Origin: a virus
DNA length: 64,000 nucleotides
UHGV virus genome: UHGV-0072281
Strand: one strand, 5' to 3'
Shown here: positions 42,589 to 52,101 of the stretch, in pieces
How positions within the stretch are numbered: position 1 is the stretch's first letter
Layout: the number at the start of each line of letters is the position of its first letter
Made by a program: the position numbers and the translations under genes
Notes under the pieces: model-generated
Seen by the model: the letters and a program-made list of their open reading frames with translations, nothing else
The model's database searches: none
What the model was told of the DNA's origin: nothing

Positions 42589-43152
42589 GTGGCCACATCT
42601 TACGTACCTGATTTGAGTCTGACCTCAGCAGAGCTAGTGGTCGCTTTAATCAATCATGATAACGGGTTACAGCTTACGCTAAACGAAATCCGTATTAGCG
42701 GAACCGTAACAAACCCATCACCAACAACTTCGCGTCGTAACACCATCACCGAAATCAGTAAAATCAGAAAACCGGATGGTGCGTCTGTTGTGGTCTACTA
42801 CGACAGACTTGACGCCGATGAGGTATTAACGTCTGAACCTATTTTGATTTCGTTAGACGGTACCGAAGCGAATATCCGTGACGTTCTGAGTGTTGTAAAT
42901 GAACACTGCGGTACGAACTTACAGCCTGAAGACTTACGCGTTTCTGATATTACTTCAGGTAACGATCCTATTGCCGTTAACGTTGCCGACGATTCACCTG
43001 CGTGGATGAATGCGTTTATGGTGACGTTATTTGATAAAACTGAGCGTGCGTTAGCGAACGAAGAAGATGAAATCTTCTGCATCGGTGACGATAGCGTTCT
43101 TACCTTTGAGGTTCCAGATGACGACTCAGCTGAAGAAAACCCGACTACATGA
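42589..43152 (+). CDS. fibre-associated protein, paralogue 1 of a four-member family
   Basis: GTG start with GGAGGG upstream; shares PDLSLTS, VNHD, NLQ-x-DL and C-x-GDDSVLTF with the 48883 gene; precedes fibre 1. Confidence 0.55.
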   Translation: MATSYVPDLSLTSAELVVALINHDNGLQLTLNEIRISGTVTNPSPTTSRRNTITEISKIRKPDGASVVVYYDRLDADEVLTSEPILISLDGTEANIRDVLSVVNEHCGTNLQPEDLRVSDITSGNDPIAVNVADDSPAWMNAFMVTLFDKTERALANEEDEIFCIGDDSVLTFEVPDDDSAEENPTT

Positions 43153-43357
43153 ACTTGATGATTTTTACCGGTAATGGAGGACAAAGCAAACTTTTATCAA
43201 GACTTAGCAAACCAAAATCATGAAAACGCGAAATTGAACATCGCTTTCACGTTAGAAGATGATGTATTAAAACCAGGGCAATAGTAACCCGCTTATAAAA
43301 AATTGGGGGGTAAACTACTCTCCTGATCTTTTAGCTCCCGATAGAGAATTAAATATC

Positions 43358-46300
43358 ATGGCTAAAGCGGTAAAGAAAATTCGTTTACACGATTTACGTC
43401 CATACACCGGTGATATCGGTGAAGGCGTTTTACTTTTCTCCAAGGATGAGAAAGATTATAAGTTACCAGTCCGTGAGGTTATTGCAGATATTGACACCGT
43501 ACGTAATGCGGTGGCTGATGCACAAACAGCAGCAGCACAATCACAAGAAGCTGCAACTCAGGCTACGCAAGCAAAAGTTTTAGCAGAAGCAGCAAAACAA
43601 CAAACTGACACAGTTGCGGCAACGGTTGCACAACAAGCGCAAACCGTAACCGAAAAAGCAACAGAAGTCAGTACAAAACATACCGAAGTGTTAGCCGCGA
43701 AAACGGCGGTAGACGCTCAGGCTGTGTCCATTAATGAGAAAGCACAAGCGGTAGCGACAAGTGAGGCAAACGTCACACAAGCAGAAACTACCGTTACGAA
43801 GAAAGCAGAAACTGTTGCCACACAAGCCGGGCGGGTCGAACAGTCACTTACGGCAGTTAACGAAGCTGTTGCGTCGGTAGAGTCGTCGAAAGCTGCCGTA
43901 GAAGCTAAAGCAACACAAGTTACTTCAGACAAAGAAACCGCAGAGAATGCGGCAACTCGTTCTGAGGCAGCCGCTAAGCGTGCGGAAGAAATCGTTGCTC
44001 AAGGTACTGTTGATGCAACAACGACCAGTAAAGGTGTCGTTAAACTTAATAATACCTTAACCAGTGACTCTGTTACTGAAGCGGCTACACCGTCAACGGT
44101 TAAGCAGTTAAATGATGAATTGCAGTTAAAAGCAAACCGTCACAACCCAACTTTTACCGGTGTGGTAAAAGCACCGACTCCTGCTTCGGATTCTAACGAC
44201 ACGAGCGTCTCAACGACTGCATGGGTACGGCAAGCGATTGCTGAATTAGTGGACTCTTCACCCGAGACGTTAGATACGTTATCAGAAATTGCAGCCGCGT
44301 TAGGAAACGATCCTAACTTTGCGACAACGATAACGAACCAACTAGCGGGTAAACAGCCGTTAAGTCCGTTACTGACAGCGATTGCCGCAGTCACCACCGC
44401 TGCAAACAAACTCCCTTACTTTACCGGTAGTAATCAGGTAGGGTTAGCGGATTTCACCTCGACTGCTCGCGAATTATTAGCGAAAGGGTCGACGGCCGAT
44501 ATCATCAGCTTCCTGGGGTTGAAAACCACCGTTGATAAAGCTGCGGGCGCTATGCAACGTAGTTCTAACGGTGCCGATATTCCCGATAAAGCCACCTTCG
44601 CGAAGAACATCGGGTTGTCAGCAGAGACGTACCTGAAGTTTAATGGGGAGATGCCAGTAGATGCAGACATCAACACCTTCGGCCCGGTTGAAGCGTTTAT
44701 GGGCGTTTGGTCTAAAGCCACGTCTACGAACGCAACAGTTGCAAAGAATTTTCCAGAAGAAAACGCAGTTGGTTGTTTAGAAGTTTTCAAAGCGGGTAAC
44801 TACAGCGGAAGTCAACGTTTTACTGTACGTAACGGTAACATCTATACACGTCATCTTACTGCTGCATGGAATGGGACAAACGGTCCTTGGTCAGAATGGC
44901 GTAATGTTGCTGGTTCCGCCAGAACGTTGAACGAACAAAATAATCTGAATGACTTGGGTGGTGAGGCCGCACTAGGTGTTTGGAGAAACAGTTCGAGTAC
45001 ATTAGCAACAACCGCGCTGAATTATCCTGAAGAAGGCTCTTTTGCCCAGGGCGTATTAGAAGTTCTCAAAGGTGGCAACTATAGTTACACACAACGCTAC
45101 ACTACCCGCAGAGGCAATGTATACGTTCGTTGTCTACAAGCCACGTGGGACGCTTCAAACCCGCAATGGGAAGAATGGCGCTGTGTTGGTCATCAATCTG
45201 TCAGCACATATTTCGAAGGCGATCTCGACACGTTAACTTCGCCTAACCGTTATAGCATTACTGATAAAGCGACAAACGTTCCTTTAATCGACGGTACTAA
45301 AATTATCGGTATCTTGGACGTCAGTCGTCGTTTTGATAACATTAGTGTCGAACAAAAATTCACCTCGTTTGGTTCTGGGAGCAAAACTACAGGGCGTATT
45401 TTCACACGTGTATTCTCCGGTCAATCAAACGGTAAATGGAGTGAGTGGCGAGAGGTTTTCACCTCGTATTCACTTCCGTTAGTTTTAGGTATCGGTGGGG
45501 TTGCAGCTAAGGTTGACCCGTTAGACTGGCAAACCTACGACTTCGTTCCTGGACAGATGTTAACGACGCCGTTGAACACCATGAAAAACATTCCTGCAGG
45601 AATGGATTGGGGTACTATTGACGGTAACTTAGTTAACATCCTTGTAGGGCCGTCTGACGACACCGGTACTGGTCGGAGTATGCTGGTTTGGCGTAGCACA
45701 GTGTCTGTTGCTAACTATCGCTTCTTTGCGGTACGTATCGCTGGTGAGAAGGGTAGTCGTACGATTACGCCGCGTCAGATGCCTGTGTTGAACGCAGCGC
45801 ACACCTGGTCAGAGAAACAAACGTTCTCTAAAGGTTTAGCGGGTGAATTAACCGGTAATGCTTCTTCAGCAACGAAACTTCAAACAGCCCGTTTAATCGG
45901 CGGCGTAAGTTTCGACGGCACCAAGGACATTGCACTCCCTGGCGTTAACGCACAAGGTACGCAGAACACCACTGGGAATGCGGCTACCGCAACCAAATTA
46001 CAAACGGCTAGAAATATCAACGGTGTGAAATTCGATGGCTCTGGAGACATCAATATCAACACCTTAGTAGGTCGTGGACGTGTCACTGCTCTGGCTGGAT
46101 CAAACAAAGGTACACCTGGTATCCAGATGTACGAGGTTTACAATAACGGTTATCCGACCGCGTATGGTAATTTACTGCATTTAGGTGGTGCTACTGCCGT
46201 AGGTGAAGGTGAACTACTGATCGGTTGGTCTGGTACCAGTGGCGCACACGCACCTGTTTATATCCGTAGTCGTCGAGACACTACAGATGCGCCGTGGTCA

Positions 46301-47674
46301 GAATGGGCGCAAGTTTATACTGCACGAGACAGCATTCCGGGTGTCAACACCACAGGTAATCAGGATACGACCGGAAACGCAGCTACCGCTACAAAACTTA
46401 AAACCACACGTAAAATAGGCGGGGTTAATTTTGACGGAACGGGTGATATTAACCTACCAGGTGTAAACCAGCAGGGCAACCAGAACACAACAGGTAACGC
46501 TGCGACAGCGACTAAACTCCAGACTGCCCGAAATATTGGTGGTGTGGCTTTCGATGGTACTAAAGACATCAGTTTACCTGGGGTAAACCAAACAGGGAAT
46601 CAGTCAACTACGGGGAACGCTGCTACTGCAACGAAGTTGCAGACAGCAAGAAGTATCAACAACGTACCATTCGATGGTTCGAAAGATATTACTCTAACGC
46701 CAAGTAATATCGGTGCGGCTGCCTCCTCAATGACTTGGTTAAATACCGGGGATAATGGTGCAGCGCTTAGTACAGATTCTTTTATTACTTTGTTGCAAAA
46801 TAACGGGGCTTTTAATTCCAGAACTTGGATAGCCCGATGCTCTTGGGCGTATGCTCAAAATGGCGTGATTCCAGATAGTGAAACAAAGTGCGGTACTATT
46901 CCACTTGCAGGCTCAGTTATTGAAGTTGTAAGTTTTGGGATGACCAACTACACCATTCGTATCACAACCCCTACGACGACATCGGTTAGCGGAGCAAAAA
47001 CCAACTCTGAGTTTATTTATTGCTATAATGGTAAAGATTATTCTCCAGGTTGGCGACGGCAGTATAACACTGTTAATAAACCGTCTGCTAGTGACGTTGG
47101 CGCTCTACCAACTGGTGGCGGTACTGTCAGTGGCGATTTGACGGTTAATGGTAAACTGGTTACGAAAAATGCCGATTTTCGAATTGCTTACGGTAGTTAC
47201 GGTTTCATTTTACGTAACGATGGCAATAGCACCTATTTCTTAGTAACAGCATCTGGTCAAGCTGCAACGGGTTCCTGGAATAACTTACGACCGATGTATT
47301 TTAGCAACTCTACCGGTCAAGTAACCTTCGGGCACAACGTTACTGGTAACGGGAACGGTTCGTTTAACGACGTACAGATTCGTTCTGACCGTCGTAACAA
47401 ACGTAATCTGGTGAAACTGGATAATGCATTAGACCGTTTAGAACTCCTTACCGGGTATCTGTACGAAGTTCAACATCCTGACGATGGATGGAATACTTCG
47501 GTAGGCTTAATTGCCCAGGATGCATTAGTTGCGTTACCTGAATTGGTTACTGAAGACGATGACGCTATTTCTGGTGAAAAACGTTTACGTTTGAACTATA
47601 ATGGTGTTATTGCGTTGTTGGTAGAGGGCATTAAAGACCTTCGTCGTGAGCTTAAGGAACTCAAGGGGAAATAA
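43358..47674 (+). CDS. long tail fibre protein (gp37-like distal fibre) with C-terminal intramolecular chaperone (peptidase S74-type) domain
   Basis: 1438 aa; Ala/Gln-rich coiled-coil N-terminal region; five copies of TGNAATATKLQTAR-I-GV-FDG-KDI; three ~70-aa tandem domains; C-terminal SDRRNKRNLVKLD...YNGVIALLVEGIKDL matches the self-cleaving chaperone signature. Confidence 0.85.
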   Translation: MAKAVKKIRLHDLRPYTGDIGEGVLLFSKDEKDYKLPVREVIADIDTVRNAVADAQTAAAQSQEAATQATQAKVLAEAAKQQTDTVAATVAQQAQTVTEKATEVSTKHTEVLAAKTAVDAQAVSINEKAQAVATSEANVTQAETTVTKKAETVATQAGRVEQSLTAVNEAVASVESSKAAVEAKATQVTSDKETAENAATRSEAAAKRAEEIVAQGTVDATTTSKGVVKLNNTLTSDSVTEAATPSTVKQLNDELQLKANRHNPTFTGVVKAPTPASDSNDTSVSTTAWVRQAIAELVDSSPETLDTLSEIAAALGNDPNFATTITNQLAGKQPLSPLLTAIAAVTTAANKLPYFTGSNQVGLADFTSTARELLAKGSTADIISFLGLKTTVDKAAGAMQRSSNGADIPDKATFAKNIGLSAETYLKFNGEMPVDADINTFGPVEAFMGVWSKATSTNATVAKNFPEENAVGCLEVFKAGNYSGSQRFTVRNGNIYTRHLTAAWNGTNGPWSEWRNVAGSARTLNEQNNLNDLGGEAALGVWRNSSSTLATTALNYPEEGSFAQGVLEVLKGGNYSYTQRYTTRRGNVYVRCLQATWDASNPQWEEWRCVGHQSVSTYFEGDLDTLTSPNRYSITDKATNVPLIDGTKIIGILDVSRRFDNISVEQKFTSFGSGSKTTGRIFTRVFSGQSNGKWSEWREVFTSYSLPLVLGIGGVAAKVDPLDWQTYDFVPGQMLTTPLNTMKNIPAGMDWGTIDGNLVNILVGPSDDTGTGRSMLVWRSTVSVANYRFFAVRIAGEKGSRTITPRQMPVLNAAHTWSEKQTFSKGLAGELTGNASSATKLQTARLIGGVSFDGTKDIALPGVNAQGTQNTTGNAATATKLQTARNINGVKFDGSGDININTLVGRGRVTALAGSNKGTPGIQMYEVYNNGYPTAYGNLLHLGGATAVGEGELLIGWSGTSGAHAPVYIRSRRDTTDAPWSEWAQVYTARDSIPGVNTTGNQDTTGNAATATKLKTTRKIGGVNFDGTGDINLPGVNQQGNQNTTGNAATATKLQTARNIGGVAFDGTKDISLPGVNQTGNQSTTGNAATATKLQTARSINNVPFDGSKDITLTPSNIGAAASSMTWLNTGDNGAALSTDSFITLLQNNGAFNSRTWIARCSWAYAQNGVIPDSETKCGTIPLAGSVIEVVSFGMTNYTIRITTPTTTSVSGAKTNSEFIYCYNGKDYSPGWRRQYNTVNKPSASDVGALPTGGGTVSGDLTVNGKLVTKNADFRIAYGSYGFILRNDGNSTYFLVTASGQAATGSWNNLRPMYFSNSTGQVTFGHNVTGNGNGSFNDVQIRSDRRNKRNLVKLDNALDRLELLTGYLYEVQHPDDGWNTSVGLIAQDALVALPELVTEDDDAISGEKRLRLNYNGVIALLVEGIKDLRRELKELKGK

Positions 47675-47677
47675 AGG

Positions 47678-48220
47678 ATGGCAGTTGTTGAAGTTCCAGG
47701 TTATATCGGTTCTTCTGCAAAGGAAGTTACTGGCGAAGAGATGATGTCTGAAGCGATGACCGAACTCGGCGTTGTCGTACCAGGGATGATGTCTGAAATG
47801 GCAGGTCTGTCAATGGGTTGCTATGTAACGTTTGAGGAGTGGACTACCGTTGAAGATGGCCTTGATGTTCGATGGATCGGTGCGTCTACTTCCGAGTGGA
47901 CAGACGGCTACGGCAAACCGGTCGTTAAAGGAAAAATATCCGGGGCGAAGATGTTTGGTTTGAATGTCGAAGCGGAGCTGATCGGAATGCACTATAAAAA
48001 GCATCCGCGATTCCCTTGGTCAGTCGAACTAAAATGTCGCTGCGAAAAAGGTAGCAATTTCAGTTATACGTTAGACGGTGTAAGCGGTTCTGTATCGAGT
48101 GATGGTACCGGTACAACCGGAATGCAAATTCGTACATTCAAATTTAACAATTTCAGTGCAGCATTTAAGGAAAAGATAGAGCAAGTTGGTGTCAAGATGC
48201 CAACATCACGTAAATATTAA
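47678..48220 (+). CDS. gp38-like tail fibre adhesin, copy 1
   Basis: N-terminus MAVVEVPGYIGSSAKEVTGEEMMSEA...MMSEMAGLSMGC closely matches the conserved N-terminal attachment domain of T2-type gp38 adhesins (recalled from memory); directly follows the fibre gene. Confidence 0.55.
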   Translation: MAVVEVPGYIGSSAKEVTGEEMMSEAMTELGVVVPGMMSEMAGLSMGCYVTFEEWTTVEDGLDVRWIGASTSEWTDGYGKPVVKGKISGAKMFGLNVEAELIGMHYKKHPRFPWSVELKCRCEKGSNFSYTLDGVSGSVSSDGTGTTGMQIRTFKFNNFSAAFKEKIEQVGVKMPTSRKY

Positions 48221-48227
48221 AAGAGTA

Positions 48228-48253
48228 GCGTAGGGGTGACCTCCCCCCTACGC
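48228..48253 (+). other. hairpin followed by a G10 tract in place of a T run
   Basis: gcgtagggg/cccctacgc stem; its C6 run could alternatively pair with the downstream G10. Confidence 0.5.
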
Positions 48254-48264
48254 GAATCTTAACA

Positions 48265-48274
48265 GGGGGGGGGG
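48265..48274 (+). repeat. homopolymeric G10 tract, 3 nt upstream of the adhesin-2 start codon
   Basis: Ten consecutive G at -12 to -3 relative to ATG 48277. Confidence 0.9.
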
Positions 48275-48276
48275 TA

Positions 48277-48780
48277 ATGGCGGTTAACTCGGGTTGGGTC
48301 GGTTCTTCGGCTAAGAGCGAAACGGGCGAACAGTGGATGAGCGCTGCGGGTGCCAAATTGGGATTGGGTAAACCTTTTATGATGAGTCAAATGGTGGGAC
48401 GATCTATGGGCTGTAAAATTTCAACTGCTGCATATAGTGATTCTTTAGGTAAGAAATGGGGTGCTGTGGGATCAAGTTGGCCATTAACTCAGAAAAATCA
48501 GGGAACCATTCAAAACGCGGGTAACTGCGGGGTGGGAACTTTAGTAGGTATAGAGTTACAATTAACGACGGTAGTTGCCAACGCAACGCCTACTCTAGCG
48601 GTCTATTTACAAGGCGGCAGGGCCTCTAACATCACTGCAAATCTAGGCGGTAACACTTGTGCGCTGACCTATCAGCAGGTTATTAATGGCCAACATTATT
48701 ACTGGACCAATAACATTAGTGCCGCGTTCCAAAACGTGATGAAATCGACCGGTACACTAAGAGATTTCAAAATTAGTTAA
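48277..48780 (+). CDS. gp38-like tail fibre adhesin, copy 2 (divergent C-terminal domain)
   Basis: N-terminus MAVNSGWVGSSAKSETGEQWMSAA...MMSQMVGRSMGC paralogous to copy 1; Gly/Asn/Thr-rich C-terminal region; flanked by G10 tracts. Confidence 0.55.
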   Translation: MAVNSGWVGSSAKSETGEQWMSAAGAKLGLGKPFMMSQMVGRSMGCKISTAAYSDSLGKKWGAVGSSWPLTQKNQGTIQNAGNCGVGTLVGIELQLTTVVANATPTLAVYLQGGRASNITANLGGNTCALTYQQVINGQHYYWTNNISAAFQNVMKSTGTLRDFKIS

Positions 48781-48817: not shown

Positions 48818-48827
48818 GGGGGGGGGG
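48818..48827 (+). repeat. second homopolymeric G10 tract
   Basis: Ten consecutive G, 55 nt upstream of the GTG start at 48883. Confidence 0.9.
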
Positions 48828-48882: not shown

Positions 48883-49395
48883 GTGGAACAATTCACGCCA
48901 GATTTGTCGTTAACTTCACTTAACATGGTTATTTCACTGGTTAACCATGACCTCCAACTTGACTTGCAAGAGAATGAGGTCGAAGTCAGTGACGTAAAGA
49001 CCAGTGACGAAATGGAACGTGACACCACTGCTGTTGTAAAGATAAAACGTTCTGGTAACAGAACGTTACAAATCTACTACAACCGTTTAACTGCAGAGCG
49101 GTGGTTAAACCGACAACCTGTACTTGTAAAAGTAACAGGCGAAGGGTTTAATGCGCACGATCTAATCGAATCCATCAACACCGTTTGTGGTGCTAACTTA
49201 CAAACCGACGATTTAACCGACCAGTCGTTCACGGTGGGTAAAGACGCGGTAATATTTAGCATCGCTCCGAGTTCCCTCGGCTACAAAGGTCAGTTCTCCG
49301 TGGTGGTTTTCGGTCCAGATGAAACACCGTGTGGTATCGGTGACGATTCTGTCGTGCTAACGTTTGACAATAAAATCTTAACCTTTGGAGAGTAA
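48883..49395 (+). CDS. fibre-associated protein, paralogue 2
   Basis: GTG start with AGGAGGT upstream; paralogous to 42589; precedes fibre 2. Confidence 0.55.
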   Translation: MEQFTPDLSLTSLNMVISLVNHDLQLDLQENEVEVSDVKTSDEMERDTTAVVKIKRSGNRTLQIYYNRLTAERWLNRQPVLVKVTGEGFNAHDLIESINTVCGANLQTDDLTDQSFTVGKDAVIFSIAPSSLGYKGQFSVVVFGPDETPCGIGDDSVVLTFDNKILTFGE

Positions 49396-49398
49396 TAG

Positions 49399-51531
49399 AT
49401 GAGTCAGCCAATTGGAAAGAAGCGTATTCATGAGCTGGAAACATTTGAAGGTGAATTAGCAGGAGTCGTTCTGCTGATGTCCAAAGACGACAAAGAATAT
49501 AAACTTGACGCATCTCGTTTACAAAACGATAAGCTGTATCTAGCTTGCGGTACACCTTTTCCTAAACTAGTATTCCAAAACGATAAAACACTTTACAATA
49601 TTAATCCGTACAGTGACTACGACACTTATGAAGTTTCTGCAAATAAAGGTCGGGTATCTAAAGTTACTCGTGCCACATTTAGCGTGATGGCTGGGTCTTT
49701 ATCGGTTGGCGAGAAAATACAACTTACAGTTACGCGCAATGGCGTACCATTTCAATTTGAAGTTACCGTATCGGGACCGCGTATCACTACTCCCACTTGG
49801 ACACTTCCAGTTAATGGCGGTAAATTGAGCGTAACGCCAACCTTTGAAGTAACTGACTATCAAGCCTATCCATATACCAACACCGGTAATCAACAGACCG
49901 CTGCCAGTTGGGAAATTTCCACTAGTGAAGATTTCTCAACTACAGTTTTCCAATCACTGAACGACACCGTCAACAAAACAACCATCAGTATCCCAGAAGG
50001 TAAGTTAGAACCAGGTCAAACTTACTACGCACGTGTTCGCTTCCATAACGCAGTAACCGAAAGTGATTGGTCCGTTGTTCAATTCTCAGTCGGCGAAGCA
50101 TTTATTCAGCGTCCTGCACTGATCGAACCCACCGTAGACATGGTGTTAAGCGCATCGAATATTACACTTAAAACTGATGTTTTTAAATGGGTCGGTGACG
50201 AACCTGCGGAGACCCACGTATCGACTGACTGGCAGGTTACTTACGGTAGCAACGATTTTGACGAAATGAATAATCTCGTTAACCAATTAGAAGATGCGAT
50301 TAACCTGACGTCGCTTAAATTACCGTCTGATCGGGTTTACGTTAATAACAGTTATCGTGCACGCGTGCGTTTTCGTGGTGAGAGAAGCGTCAGTGATTGG
50401 TCTGAACCTTTAACGTTCCGTGTAAGTCGCGGGAACGTACCAACAAGTGAATTCCAGTCAATTTCTGCTTCTGGATTTACAGGTAATTCAATCGGTGCTG
50501 AGTTGGCATGTACTGACGACGGTTTGCTGTTTGCTGCTACTGGCGTTGCACAGAAAGCGAAATTCTTACATATCTTTAAGAAAGACTTCCCGTCTTACAA
50601 CAAAGTTGCCTCTTTAACAGCTGCTACTGAGGTTGACGCAGACAGAGATGGTCGCTGTCCGGTCAGTATGTCAGCCGACGGTAAGATTATTGTTGTCGGT
50701 GTTAGCGCATCTAAAGCTAACGAAGACCACGGCGAAGTTATCGTTTACCGTAACCCAGATAACGCTGAGTGGAGTACAATCAACGGAATAACTTTAGCGG
50801 GATTACCCACAGAAGGGTTCCATGGCCTTGCAGTAAAACTGTCAAAAGACGGCAATCGTTTGATTGTGGGTAACGGTACGAAAGTGCTGTCTATGTATTC
50901 CAATACCGATCAATTTGCTACACGTACGGCTGTGTCGCCGACACTAAGTGCCGAAGACGCCACTTGTGGTGGTATTGGTAGCATTGCAATGTCTGAAGAC
51001 GGTAACGGTTTAGTGCTTGGCGAAACTAACGGAACGAAATTCCACGTACTGGCTTGGGAATCGGATAGTTGGGTGACTAAGGCATCTATTACACCAAAAG
51101 ACTTGACTGAGAAAGCAACGATTAAAGTCGCTGCTTCTTCTGACTTGTCTACGATTCTTGTTTCTGTAGTTGAGACACACAAATACTACGTTTACAAGAA
51201 AACCGGTGATAGTTGGTCTCTGTTCCAAACCTTGGATTATACCGAACTGGATTACTCCATTACTTCTACCCGTTACCCGACGGGAGACATTAATGTTGCG
51301 CCTTCCGGAAGCTGGTTAATTTTCGGTATGGTGGGTTCGTTGGGTTCTATTTTCGAATTTCGTAATAGTACCTACCAACGACAAAATAGCATTTACGGCA
51401 GTAGTCTTAGCGATCCTGAGAATTACCACTTCTATACGTCACAAGCCATCAGTGCACAAAACGATTTGTTCGTCGGTGCTGATGTTAAAGAAAGTGCTTC
51501 GTACTTCCCACAAATCAAAGTTTACATGTAA
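49399..51531 (+). CDS. second tail fibre or receptor-binding protein (710 aa)
   Basis: N-terminal ~45 aa homologous to fibre 1 (KKRIHELE...GVVLLMSKDDKEYKL); two tandem domains ending Y-ARVRF...SDWS; C-terminal repeated S-x-DG-x-x-IVVG blade-like motifs. Confidence 0.7.
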   Translation: MSQPIGKKRIHELETFEGELAGVVLLMSKDDKEYKLDASRLQNDKLYLACGTPFPKLVFQNDKTLYNINPYSDYDTYEVSANKGRVSKVTRATFSVMAGSLSVGEKIQLTVTRNGVPFQFEVTVSGPRITTPTWTLPVNGGKLSVTPTFEVTDYQAYPYTNTGNQQTAASWEISTSEDFSTTVFQSLNDTVNKTTISIPEGKLEPGQTYYARVRFHNAVTESDWSVVQFSVGEAFIQRPALIEPTVDMVLSASNITLKTDVFKWVGDEPAETHVSTDWQVTYGSNDFDEMNNLVNQLEDAINLTSLKLPSDRVYVNNSYRARVRFRGERSVSDWSEPLTFRVSRGNVPTSEFQSISASGFTGNSIGAELACTDDGLLFAATGVAQKAKFLHIFKKDFPSYNKVASLTAATEVDADRDGRCPVSMSADGKIIVVGVSASKANEDHGEVIVYRNPDNAEWSTINGITLAGLPTEGFHGLAVKLSKDGNRLIVGNGTKVLSMYSNTDQFATRTAVSPTLSAEDATCGGIGSIAMSEDGNGLVLGETNGTKFHVLAWESDSWVTKASITPKDLTEKATIKVAASSDLSTILVSVVETHKYYVYKKTGDSWSLFQTLDYTELDYSITSTRYPTGDINVAPSGSWLIFGMVGSLGSIFEFRNSTYQRQNSIYGSSLSDPENYHFYTSQAISAQNDLFVGADVKESASYFPQIKVYM

Positions 51532-51540
51532 GGAAACGCG

Positions 51541-52101
51541 ATGAAATATGCTTATTTAAAAGACGGTAATGTGATCGACTGGAATGTTACCGAAGACATG
51601 ATTGCTTTGCGTGGCCACACTGTAGATATTTATACGCCTGTAGTAGAATCTGCTAAACCGGTTGTTAACCCTGATTGTTATATCGTGTTCGAAACAACAC
51701 CAAAACTGGTAAAAGGCAAGCTGGTTCAACAGTGGGTGACTGAAGTGCTGCCTAAAGAAACGGTAGTACGTAACCAGAAGGCACGTTTAGCGGAAATTCG
51801 TTATGCGAAAGAAACTGCCGGGATTACGTTTAAAGACCAAACTATTCCTACGACACGTGATGTACGTTATCAGTTAATTCAGTCTAAACACGTTGATTCT
51901 ACGCAACCTATTAACTGGAAGCTAGGCGATACGTGGCTAAGTCTTACTCAGGAAGACATTGATGCGCTGCTGGTTGCAATCGCAACTTATGTTGAGAAAT
52001 GCTACGCGGCAGAACGCACAGTCTCCGAGAAAATCACTAAGGTGAAAGCACCTGAAAAACTGGATGTAGAAACCTTATTTAACGACGCTTTCGCAGCGTA
52101 A
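51541..52101 (+). CDS. possible tail fibre assembly or chaperone protein (186 aa)
   Basis: Position directly after a fibre gene; faint resemblance to Tfa-type chaperones. Weak. Confidence 0.3.
   Translation: MKYAYLKDGNVIDWNVTEDMIALRGHTVDIYTPVVESAKPVVNPDCYIVFETTPKLVKGKLVQQWVTEVLPKETVVRNQKARLAEIRYAKETAGITFKDQTIPTTRDVRYQLIQSKHVDSTQPINWKLGDTWLSLTQEDIDALLVAIATYVEKCYAAERTVSEKITKVKAPEKLDVETLFNDAFAA

What the first reader, a model, noticed from the sequence alone, without database searches (positions are those of the whole stretch)
43358..47674. Fibre 1 combines a coiled-coil shaft, a triplicated ~70-aa domain, five 40-aa repeats and a self-cleaving C-terminal chaperone
The C-terminal ~96 aa starting at S-DRRNKRNL (near nt 47384) carry the signature of an intramolecular chaperone that autocleaves after folding. 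Five near-identical TGNAATATKLQTAR-I-GV-FDG-KDI units (nt ~45855-46700) and three beta-rich domain copies (nt ~44700-45455) are likely recombination substrates for shaft-length or specificity change.
Basis: partly seen in the sequence, partly recalled or inferred. Interest (0 to 1): 0.5.

Follow-up and report, generated by a model that had tools for sequence, protein, structure and literature searches.

The report
Self-cleaving jumbo-phage tail fibre with adhesins
This gene encodes a long, mosaic tail fibre of a roughly 225-kb enterobacterial jumbo phage; its last 96 residues are a self-removing folding chaperone, and its tip is then most likely capped by one of two small adhesins encoded just downstream, a known design in a new host genome.

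Summary
ORF 43358-47674 encodes a 1438-aa fibre with a heptad coiled coil (aa 41-220), three knob-like domains of about 91 aa (aa 430-700), five 40-aa repeats split 2+3 around a 93-aa insert, and a C-terminal Peptidase_S74 chaperone starting at S1343 (nt 47384).

The S74 call passes every computational test: Pfam above cutoff, an invariant Lys at +5 with a conserved Ser, alignment to the experimentally cleaved S16 gp37 site, and a predicted fold matching 3gw6 and 7dc3.

Two downstream genes (47678-48220, 48277-48780) carry the Gp38_N docking domain, so this is a T2/S16-type "gp37 + gp38 adhesin" fibre, and receptor specificity probably lies in the adhesins.

The "recombination substrate" idea is only partly right. 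Relatives have 4, 5 or 6 repeat units, and distal-module swaps begin in the last unit. But the units share only 48-67% nucleotide identity, and no exact repeat exceeds 12 nt.

The genome fits the recently described Bapsvirus-like jumbo phages. Verdict: an ordinary new member of a known kind. Two side leads remain: two adhesins for one fibre, and length-variable poly-G tracts around these genes.

The parts
43358..47674 (+). Tail fibre gene, 1438 aa (152.7 kDa precursor; predicted mature 1-1342 = 141.8 kDa)
43358..43465 (+). N-terminal ~36-aa anchor shared with fibre 2 (49399-51531) and with a 153-aa protein in relatives
   Evidence: 44% identity, E 2.6e-6 to fibre 2; 50% identity, E 1e-10 to the L001 153-aa protein
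43478..44017 (+). Ala/Thr/Gln-rich heptad coiled-coil shaft (aa 41-220)
   Evidence: 3.50-residue periodicity, 0/2000 shuffles; weak SMC/Rad50 hits
44018..44137 (+). Phage_fiber_2 repeat (aa 221-260)
   Evidence: PF03406, E 1.5e-10
44645..45457 (+). Three tandem ~91-aa beta-rich knob-like domains (aa 430-518, 524-611, 612-700), each ending in W(S/E)EW
   Evidence: self-similarity; homologues named 'pyocin knob domain-containing protein'; model pLDDT ~75-88 per domain; Foldseek 6cl5 R1 pyocin fibre prob 1.0, low TM
45851..46090 (+). 40-aa repeat units 1-2 (aa 832-911)
46091..46369 (+). 93-aa insert domain between repeat blocks (aa 912-1004), with a PWSEW motif; possibly a fourth knob-like domain
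   Evidence: only suggestive
46370..46729 (+). 40-aa repeat units 3-5 (aa 1005-1124); this block has 2-4 units in relatives
46706..47146 (+). P1/Mu S-like distal module (aa 1117-1263), exchanged among relatives
   Evidence: PDB 8ju3, domain E 1.5e-27; identity drops to 10-60% in relatives
46994..47299 (+). Gp34_trimer domain (aa 1213-1314)
   Evidence: PF21446, E 1.7e-22; T4 gp34 structures 4uxe/5nxf
47189..47383 (+). S16 gp37-like tip preceding the cleavage site (aa 1278-1342); predicted adhesin dock
   Evidence: 6f45_A; docking role inferred
47384..47674 (+). Peptidase_S74 intramolecular chaperone (aa 1343-1438, 10.87 kDa), S1343/K1348 dyad; predicted cleavage R1342|S1343
47678..48220 (+). 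Adhesin 1 (180 aa): Gp38_N docking domain plus a near-orphan C-terminal part; ATG lies 4 nt after the fibre stop
   Evidence: (PF21721, E 4.4e-11)
48277..48780 (+). Adhesin 2 (167 aa): Gp38_N docking domain, N-terminus aligns to S16 gp38 residues 1-62
   Evidence: E 1.2e-20; 6f45_D, E 3.4e-4
42589..43152 (+). DUF7941 virion protein heading the fibre module (a paralogue at 48883-49395 heads the fibre 2 module)

Best explanation
The gene encodes a homotrimeric long tail fibre of a Chimalliviridae-type jumbo phage, built as a mosaic of modules found in P2 H, P1/Mu S, T-even gp34/gp37 and pyocin fibres. A short N-terminal anchor fixes it to the baseplate or an adaptor. A trimeric coiled coil, knob domains and 40-aa repeats form the shaft. 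The last 96 residues are an S74-type intramolecular chaperone: three copies nucleate folding of the preceding interdigitated beta-helix, then Ser1343 with Lys1348 cuts the chain between R1342 and S1343 and the 10.9-kDa piece leaves. The newly exposed tip then binds, through the conserved Gp38_N helical domain, a single monomer of one of the two small adhesins encoded downstream, and that adhesin contacts the host receptor. Shown here: the domain composition, the conserved dyad, the predicted S74 fold, homology to the cleaved S16 gp37, and the presence of Gp38_N genes. Inferred: the cleavage itself, adhesin docking, and which adhesin is used.
For: Pfam Peptidase_S74 scores 37.4 bits against a cutoff of 22, at aa 1343-1397, starting at profile position 1. 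In 36 diverse homologues K1348 is invariant, S1343 and D1344 are conserved in at least 90%, and the GLIAQ and LNYNG motifs are kept. A profile of these homologues hits S16 gp37 6f45_A (E 1.6e-39), MYRF 7dc3 (E 8.5e-8) and, weakly (E 0.15), the GA-1 chaperone 3gud, whose chain begins at the aligned SD. The AF2 model has pLDDT 83-95 over aa 1343-1438, and its only significant PDB fold matches are 7dc3 (prob 1.0) and the endosialidase chaperone 3gw6 (prob 0.90-0.98 across chains). S16 gp37 is reported to cleave at DLNVS^SDRRIKK, releasing a 113-aa IMC and exposing the gp38 dock (PMC7917993); the window has NDVQIR^SDRRNKRN at the aligned position. Both downstream ORFs pass Pfam Gp38_N, and adhesin 2 aligns to S16 gp38 residues 1-62. 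A relative (L001) whose fibre is 98% identical over aa 1301-1350 is followed by a classic Gp38_N+GP38 adhesin. All 120 listed relatives keep SD.R.K 96-97 aa from the C-terminus. The paradigm 'IMC-bearing gp37 lacks its own receptor-binding tip and uses gp38' is stated in the literature.
Against: No experiment shows cleavage or adhesin binding for this protein. The segment before the cleavage site aligns only weakly to the S16 gp37 dock and was modelled with pLDDT below 50 as a monomer. Adhesin 1 has none of the three docking tryptophans (Y9, M22, M37 instead) and adhesin 2 has two of three. Neither adhesin has the polyglycine GP38 domain. The exchangeable P1/Mu S-like module could itself bind receptor.
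Confidence: 0.8

Rival explanations
1. The fibre's own distal body (the P1/Mu S-like module plus the Gp34_trimer domain, aa 1117-1342) is the receptor-binding determinant. The two Gp38_N proteins would act mainly as assembly factors or accessory caps rather than as the specificity-determining adhesins.
For: The aa 1101-1250 module is exchanged among otherwise 85-97% identical relatives, as a receptor-binding domain would be. It is homologous to the distal part of P1/Mu S fibres. Adhesin 1 lacks all three docking Trp. Some T-even records name gp38 homologues 'distal long tail fiber assembly catalyst'.
Against: Both ORFs match the adhesin-type Gp38_N model, with conserved N-termini and divergent C-termini, which is the signature of a dock plus a variable binding part. 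Relatives carry a bona fide polyglycine GP38 adhesin in the same slot. The adhesin slot itself is swapped or lost among relatives with 96% identical fibres.
Confidence: 0.15
2. One reading: the 40-aa repeats and the triplicated domains are active homologous-recombination substrates that frequently change shaft length or specificity within this phage.
For: Unit number is 4, 5 or 6 among 120 relatives, always in 40-aa steps. L002 lacks exactly the orthologue of window unit 4. The distal-module breakpoint lies in the last unit, after the conserved TGNAATATKLQTAR motif.
Against: Units share 48-67% nt identity with in-register exact matches of 9 nt or less; only 5 of 32 identical-residue codons are identical between the most similar pair of units. 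The longest exact direct repeat in the gene is 12 nt, and TRF finds no array. The extra unit in L001 is 66-71% identical to its neighbours, so it is old. Knob copy number never varies.
Confidence: 0.15
3. The S74 domain acts only as a folding and trimerisation module and stays attached, so no new tip is exposed.
For: Cleavage was not observed here.
Against: The Ser and Lys residues at the S74 cleavage-site positions are present with the spacing seen in the family. The closest characterised relative, S16 gp37, cleaves at the aligned site. Gp38_N genes downstream imply an exposed dock.
Confidence: 0.05

Closest known systems
Salmonella phage S16 / T2-type long tail fibre tip: gp37 with C-terminal IMC plus gp38 adhesin (PDB 6f45)
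   Same: C-terminal S74 chaperone with an SDRRxK cleavage motif at the aligned site; sequence homology of the tip and IMC (profile E 1.6e-39); an adhesin gene with the Gp38_N docking domain immediately downstream.
   Different: The host genome is a Chimalliviridae-type jumbo phage, not Straboviridae. The fibre is one 1438-aa chain rather than the gp34-37 set. Two Gp38_N genes follow instead of one. Neither has the polyglycine GP38 domain, and the docking tryptophans are partly or wholly replaced.
Endosialidase / GA-1 neck appendage / T5 pb1 C-terminal intramolecular chaperone domains (MEROPS S74, PDB 3gw6, 3gud) and the MYRF ICA domain (7dc3)
   Same: Pfam family, Ser-x4-Lys dyad at the domain's first residue, predicted fold.
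   Different: Only 14-23% sequence identity to the solved structures; here the domain is coupled to a separate adhesin rather than to an enzymatic spike.
Stx-converting phage (e.g. P13374, phi191) collagen-repeat tail fibre plus 'tail fibre adhesin' cassette
   Same: The IMC is 82% identical in protein (fragment aa 65-176). The first ~145 nt of adhesin 2 are 85.5% identical in DNA to the Stx-phage adhesin genes and 89% identical to Escherichia phage CMS-2020a, with the adhesin gene directly after the fibre.
   Different: The shaft is entirely different (collagen repeats versus coiled coil, knobs and 40-aa repeats), and the window has an extra adhesin gene inserted between the fibre and this adhesin.
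P2 gpH, P1 S, Goslar fibre and R-type pyocin fibres
   Same: aa 248-1118 is 52% identical to the Goslar fibre. About half of aa 388-1345 aligns at 51% identity to P2 H. The 40-aa ATKLxTxR...FDG repeats and pyocin-knob-like domains are shared.
   Different: In P2, P1 and Mu, assembly of the fibre tip depends on a separately encoded chaperone (own knowledge, not tested here); this fibre instead ends in a gp37-type tip with a self-cleaving IMC.

Membership tests
Peptidase S74 / C-terminal intramolecular chaperone domain | Match to the curated family model above its gathering score | tested here: met
   PF13884, 37.4 bits vs cutoff 22, E 3.1e-9, profile positions 1-57 of 58 at aa 1343-1397
Peptidase S74 / C-terminal intramolecular chaperone domain | Serine at the first residue of the domain and lysine five residues downstream (catalytic dyad per established knowledge of endosialidase and MYRF) | tested here: met
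   S1343 and K1348; K invariant and S at least 90% conserved in 36 homologues; the 3gud chain starts at the aligned SD
Peptidase S74 / C-terminal intramolecular chaperone domain | S74-type fold | tested here: met
   Predicted model only: pLDDT 83-95; Foldseek top hits 7dc3 prob 1.0 (TM 0.52-0.55 on target) and 3gw6 prob 0.90-0.98, with nothing else significant
Peptidase S74 / C-terminal intramolecular chaperone domain | Autoproteolytic release after trimerisation | not testable with these tools
   Needs virion or recombinant protein analysis
T2/S16-type gp37-gp38 fibre tip | Distal fibre homologous to gp37 tip with IMC and aligned cleavage site | tested here: met
   6f45_A E 2.6e-14 (single sequence) and 1.6e-39 (profile); SDRRNK aligned to SDRRIK; S16 cleavage site from PMC7917993
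T2/S16-type gp37-gp38 fibre tip | Adjacent downstream gene with the Gp38 N-terminal attachment domain | tested here: met
   Two genes: PF21721 E 4.4e-11 and 1.2e-20, both above cutoff 25; they are the only two in the window
T2/S16-type gp37-gp38 fibre tip | Three conserved tryptophans on the attachment helices | tested here: inconclusive
   Adhesin 2 has W7, W20 and Met in place of the third; adhesin 1 has Y9, M22, M37. The classic GP38 adhesin of L001 has all three (that of L003 is annotated without its first ~22 residues and shows two)
T2/S16-type gp37-gp38 fibre tip | Polyglycine-sandwich receptor-binding domain (Pfam GP38, PF05268) | tested here: not met
   No PF05268 hit in either window adhesin; it is present in the slot-1 adhesins of L001 and L003. 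The window adhesins belong to the shorter phrog_1121 class
Pyocin knob domain | Sequence or fold match of the ~91-aa domains to R-pyocin fibre knobs | tested here: inconclusive
   Homologues are named 'pyocin knob domain-containing protein' by NCBI. Foldseek 6cl5_A prob 1.0, 23% identity over 195 columns, but TM only 0.19-0.20 for a monomer multi-domain model. No Pfam or NCBIfam hit on the window protein itself

The most novel reading that the evidence does not exclude
One fibre, two interchangeable tips. Because one gp38 monomer caps one gp37 trimer in S16, the two Gp38_N adhesins would compete for the same exposed dock, giving each virion a mixed set of fibre tips and hence two receptor specificities. 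The length-variable poly-G tracts immediately upstream of the fibre, adhesin 2 and the next fibre module would act as slippage-prone switches that tune which tip is made. That would be a contingency-locus style host-range bet-hedging system in a nucleus-forming jumbo phage.
Probability: 0.12. Interest if true: 0.65.

Novelty: new member of a known kind. Interest (0 to 1): 0.3.

Why it matters
The result shows that the T-even "self-cleaving gp37 plus separate gp38 adhesin" design has been grafted onto the fibre of a Chimalliviridae-type jumbo phage that is common in Salmonella, E. coli and Enterobacter assemblies. The adhesin slot is the most rapidly exchanged part of the locus. For host-range prediction or engineering of these phages, the small downstream genes should be examined first, rather than the 1438-aa fibre. 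The result also corrects a tempting inference: protein-level repeats here are not DNA-level repeats.

Tried and rejected
Megablast of the gene against 50,697 phage records found nothing. Single-sequence phmmer of the C-terminus against the PDB did not reach the classical S74 structures at E up to 10; a profile and a fold search were needed. NCBIfam gave only spurious SMC/Rad50 coiled-coil hits far below cutoff. TRF and direct-repeat searches on the DNA found no array, which rejects the 'near-identical' DNA repeat idea. A fourth knob copy at aa 905-1000 could not be established. The monomer AF2 model of the segment before the cleavage site was unusable (pLDDT below 50), so the adhesin dock could not be examined structurally. 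The knob-region fold search returned many beta-propeller and lectin hits with TM below 0.25, which I treat as non-informative. I considered that the ~222-kb 'plasmid' records might indicate a new lifestyle, but this has already been published as bacterial assembly-associated phage sequences / Bapsvirus. Sigma-70 promoter scanning was at or below the shuffle expectation and is not informative for a phage with its own RNA polymerases.
Full report
**Observation**

SDRRNK begins at aa 1343, which is nt 47384. That leaves 96 residues (10.87 kDa) to the stop codon.

Five TGNA(A/S)(T/S)ATKL units start at aa 832, 872, 1005, 1045 and 1085. They form two blocks (2 + 3) separated by a 93-aa insert rather than one array.

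Self-comparison shows three tandem domains of about 91 aa. Copies 1-2 match at E 1e-21, 1-3 at E 1.8e-5 and 2-3 at E 7e-4. An HMM built from the three copies marks them at aa 430-518, 524-611 and 612-700. The stated ~70-aa size is therefore too small. The insert between the repeat blocks shares the PWSEW..VYT motif, but its relation to the knobs is only suggestive (rank 3 of 1001 against shuffles).

The coiled coil is real. Residues 41-220 are 27% Ala with no Pro, and hydrophobic residues show a periodicity peak at exactly 3.50 residues that none of 2000 shuffles reaches.

**What the protein is**

Pfam finds three domains:
- Phage_fiber_2 at aa 221-260;
- Gp34_trimer at aa 1213-1314 (E 1.7e-22);
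- Peptidase_S74 at aa 1343-1397 (37.4 bits against a cutoff of 22).

PHROGs gives 62 tail-fibre families covering different segments. PDB sequence matches are P1/Mu-type S fibre (8ju3, aa 1117-1263, domain E 1.5e-27), Mu S (5yvq), T4 gp34 and S16 gp37 (6f45_A, aa 1278-1436).

No phage record shares the DNA. At the protein level, the best partial relatives are:
- the Goslar fibre (aa 248-1118, 52% identity);
- P1 S;
- P2 H (about half of aa 388-1345 aligned, 51% identity).

The gene is thus a mosaic of well-known fibre modules.

**The S74 test**

- Thirty-six diverse homologues of the last 176 residues were aligned. K1348 is invariant, S1343 and D1344 are conserved in at least 90%, and the GLIAQ and LNYNG motifs are kept.
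- A profile of this alignment hits S16 gp37 (E 1.6e-39), another phage fibre (8jov), the MYRF autoprocessing domain 7dc3 (E 8.5e-8) and, weakly (E 0.15), the GA-1 chaperone 3gud, whose chain begins at the aligned SD.
- An AlphaFold2 model has pLDDT 83-95 across aa 1343-1438.
- The only significant fold matches to that model in the PDB are 7dc3 (probability 1.0) and the endosialidase intramolecular chaperone 3gw6 (probability 0.90-0.98 across chains).
- S16 gp37 is reported to autocleave at DLNVS^SDRRIKK, releasing the IMC and exposing the gp38 dock (PMC7917993). The window protein has NDVQIR^SDRRNKRN at the aligned position.
- All 120 listed close relatives keep an SD.R.K motif 96-97 residues from the end.

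Actual cleavage remains an inference.

The two ORFs immediately downstream (47678-48220 and 48277-48780) both pass Pfam Gp38_N (E 4.4e-11 and 1.2e-20) and PHROG 'tail fiber adhesin'. Adhesin 2 aligns to residues 1-62 of S16 gp38. They are the only Gp38_N genes in the window, and the fibre carries the only S74 domain. The adhesin 1 ATG lies 4 nt after the fibre stop.

In S16, one gp38 monomer caps the gp37 trimer through three tryptophans (PMC6851490). Adhesin 2 keeps two of the three and adhesin 1 none (Y9, M22, M37). Neither has the polyglycine GP38 domain.

Related loci confirm the pairing:
- A fibre 98% identical over aa 1301-1350 is followed by a classic Gp38_N+GP38 adhesin plus a ~170-aa Gp38_N protein (L001).
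- L003, whose distal fibre part is divergent, has the same two-gene arrangement.
- L002 and L007 have only the ~170-aa type, directly after the fibre.

So the first slot is a gained, lost and swapped adhesin position, while the second is the conserved one. Adhesin 1 of this window is nearly an orphan. Among 1.84 billion representatives only its own cluster matches full-length, and most of the other ten hits cover only the docking domain.

The IMC is 82% identical in protein to that of Stx-phage fibres. The start of adhesin 2 is 85.5% identical in DNA to the Stx-phage adhesin genes and 89% to Escherichia phage CMS-2020a. This indicates horizontal exchange of the cassette.

**The recombination claim**

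At the DNA level the five units are 48-67% identical. In-register exact matches are 9 nt or shorter, and only 5 of 32 identical-residue codons are identical in the most similar pair of units. The longest exact direct repeat in the whole gene is 12 nt, and TRF reports nothing.

Nevertheless, relatives carry 4, 5 or 6 units, always in 40-aa steps, with the second block holding 2-4 units. Unit orthology shows that L002 lacks exactly the window's unit 4. The extra unit of L001 is only 66-71% identical to its neighbours, so it is old rather than a recent duplication.

Module exchange among relatives occurs at three places: aa 401-700 (the knob region, much more divergent in some relatives), aa 1101-1250, and an insertion point near aa 1251-1300. 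The distal breakpoint falls in the last repeat unit, after the conserved motif. The repeats are therefore evolutionary joints between modules, not present-day homologous-recombination hot spots.

**Genome context**

The capsid and helicase region is about 77% identical in DNA to the Erwinia phages Asesino, Stratton and phiEaH2 and to SPN3US-like Salmonella phages. Full-length fibre relatives sit on ~220-227-kb contigs from Salmonella, E. coli and Enterobacter assemblies. These include circular 'plasmid' records NZ_CP134650.1 and NZ_CP173450.1, and a human gut metagenome. This fits the proposed genus Bapsvirus (PMC12768965). I infer that assignment from size, hosts and relatedness; I did not test it.

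**Verdict**

This is a correctly spotted but ordinary S74-bearing fibre, best described as a T2/S16-type gp37-plus-adhesin system transplanted into a jumbo phage. The novelty is modest: a new member of a known kind. Two leads deserve follow-up: two adhesin genes serving one fibre, and the variable poly-G tracts around them.

Noticed in passing
window 43305-43310, 48265-48274, 48818-48827 (also L001-L008, L010, L011): The only G/C homopolymers of 8 or more in the 64-kb window are two G10 tracts bracketing the adhesin-2 gene. One lies 2 nt before its TAATG start and one lies upstream of the next DUF7941/fibre module. A G6 lies 47 nt upstream of the fibre ATG. About 0.03 G10 tracts are expected by chance. 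Orthologous tracts differ in length among close relatives: upstream of the fibre 6, 6, 9, 9, 10, 10 or an interrupted GGGGGAGG; upstream of adhesin 2 7, 9, 9, 10; third site 8-10. Two loci encoding the identical fibre protein differ (G10 vs G9, G7 vs G9). This could be slippage-prone contingency tracts (compare PMC12633550) or homopolymer assembly error.
   Followed up: partly
window 47678-48220 vs L001, L002, L003, L005, L007: The adhesin slot directly after the fibre is the most plastic part of the locus. It holds a near-orphan 180-aa protein here and in L004-L006, a classic polyglycine GP38 in L001 and L003, and is absent in L002 and L007 even though the L007 fibre is 96% identical.
   Followed up: yes
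window 43153-43357 vs L001 2453-5922: Relatives carry a 153-aa protein (sharing the fibre N-terminal anchor motif, 50% identity over 42 aa) and a 1001-aa 'phage tail protein' between the DUF7941 gene and the S74 fibre. The window lacks this ~3.4-kb pair, so this phage probably displays one fibre type fewer.
   Followed up: partly
window 42589-43152 and 48883-49395; 49399-51531; 51541-52101: Two DUF7941 paralogues (33% identity) each head a fibre module. Fibre 2 (710 aa, Ig-like domain plus beta-propeller-like hits) shares its first 36 aa with fibre 1 and is followed by a DUF4376 protein.
   Followed up: partly
whole window; NZ_CP134650.1, NZ_CP173450.1: The genome type occurs as ~222-kb circular 'non-mobilizable plasmids' and ~220-227-kb contigs in Enterobacter, E. 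coli and Salmonella isolate assemblies and in a human gut metagenome. This matches the published bacterial assembly-associated jumbo phages (proposed Bapsvirus, Chimalliviridae).
   Followed up: yes
window 48228-48253: A perfect GC-rich hairpin (GCGTAGGGG...CCCCTACGC) lies between the two adhesin genes, without a T-tail on the + strand. Its G-run is expanded to G10 in L004.
   Followed up: no
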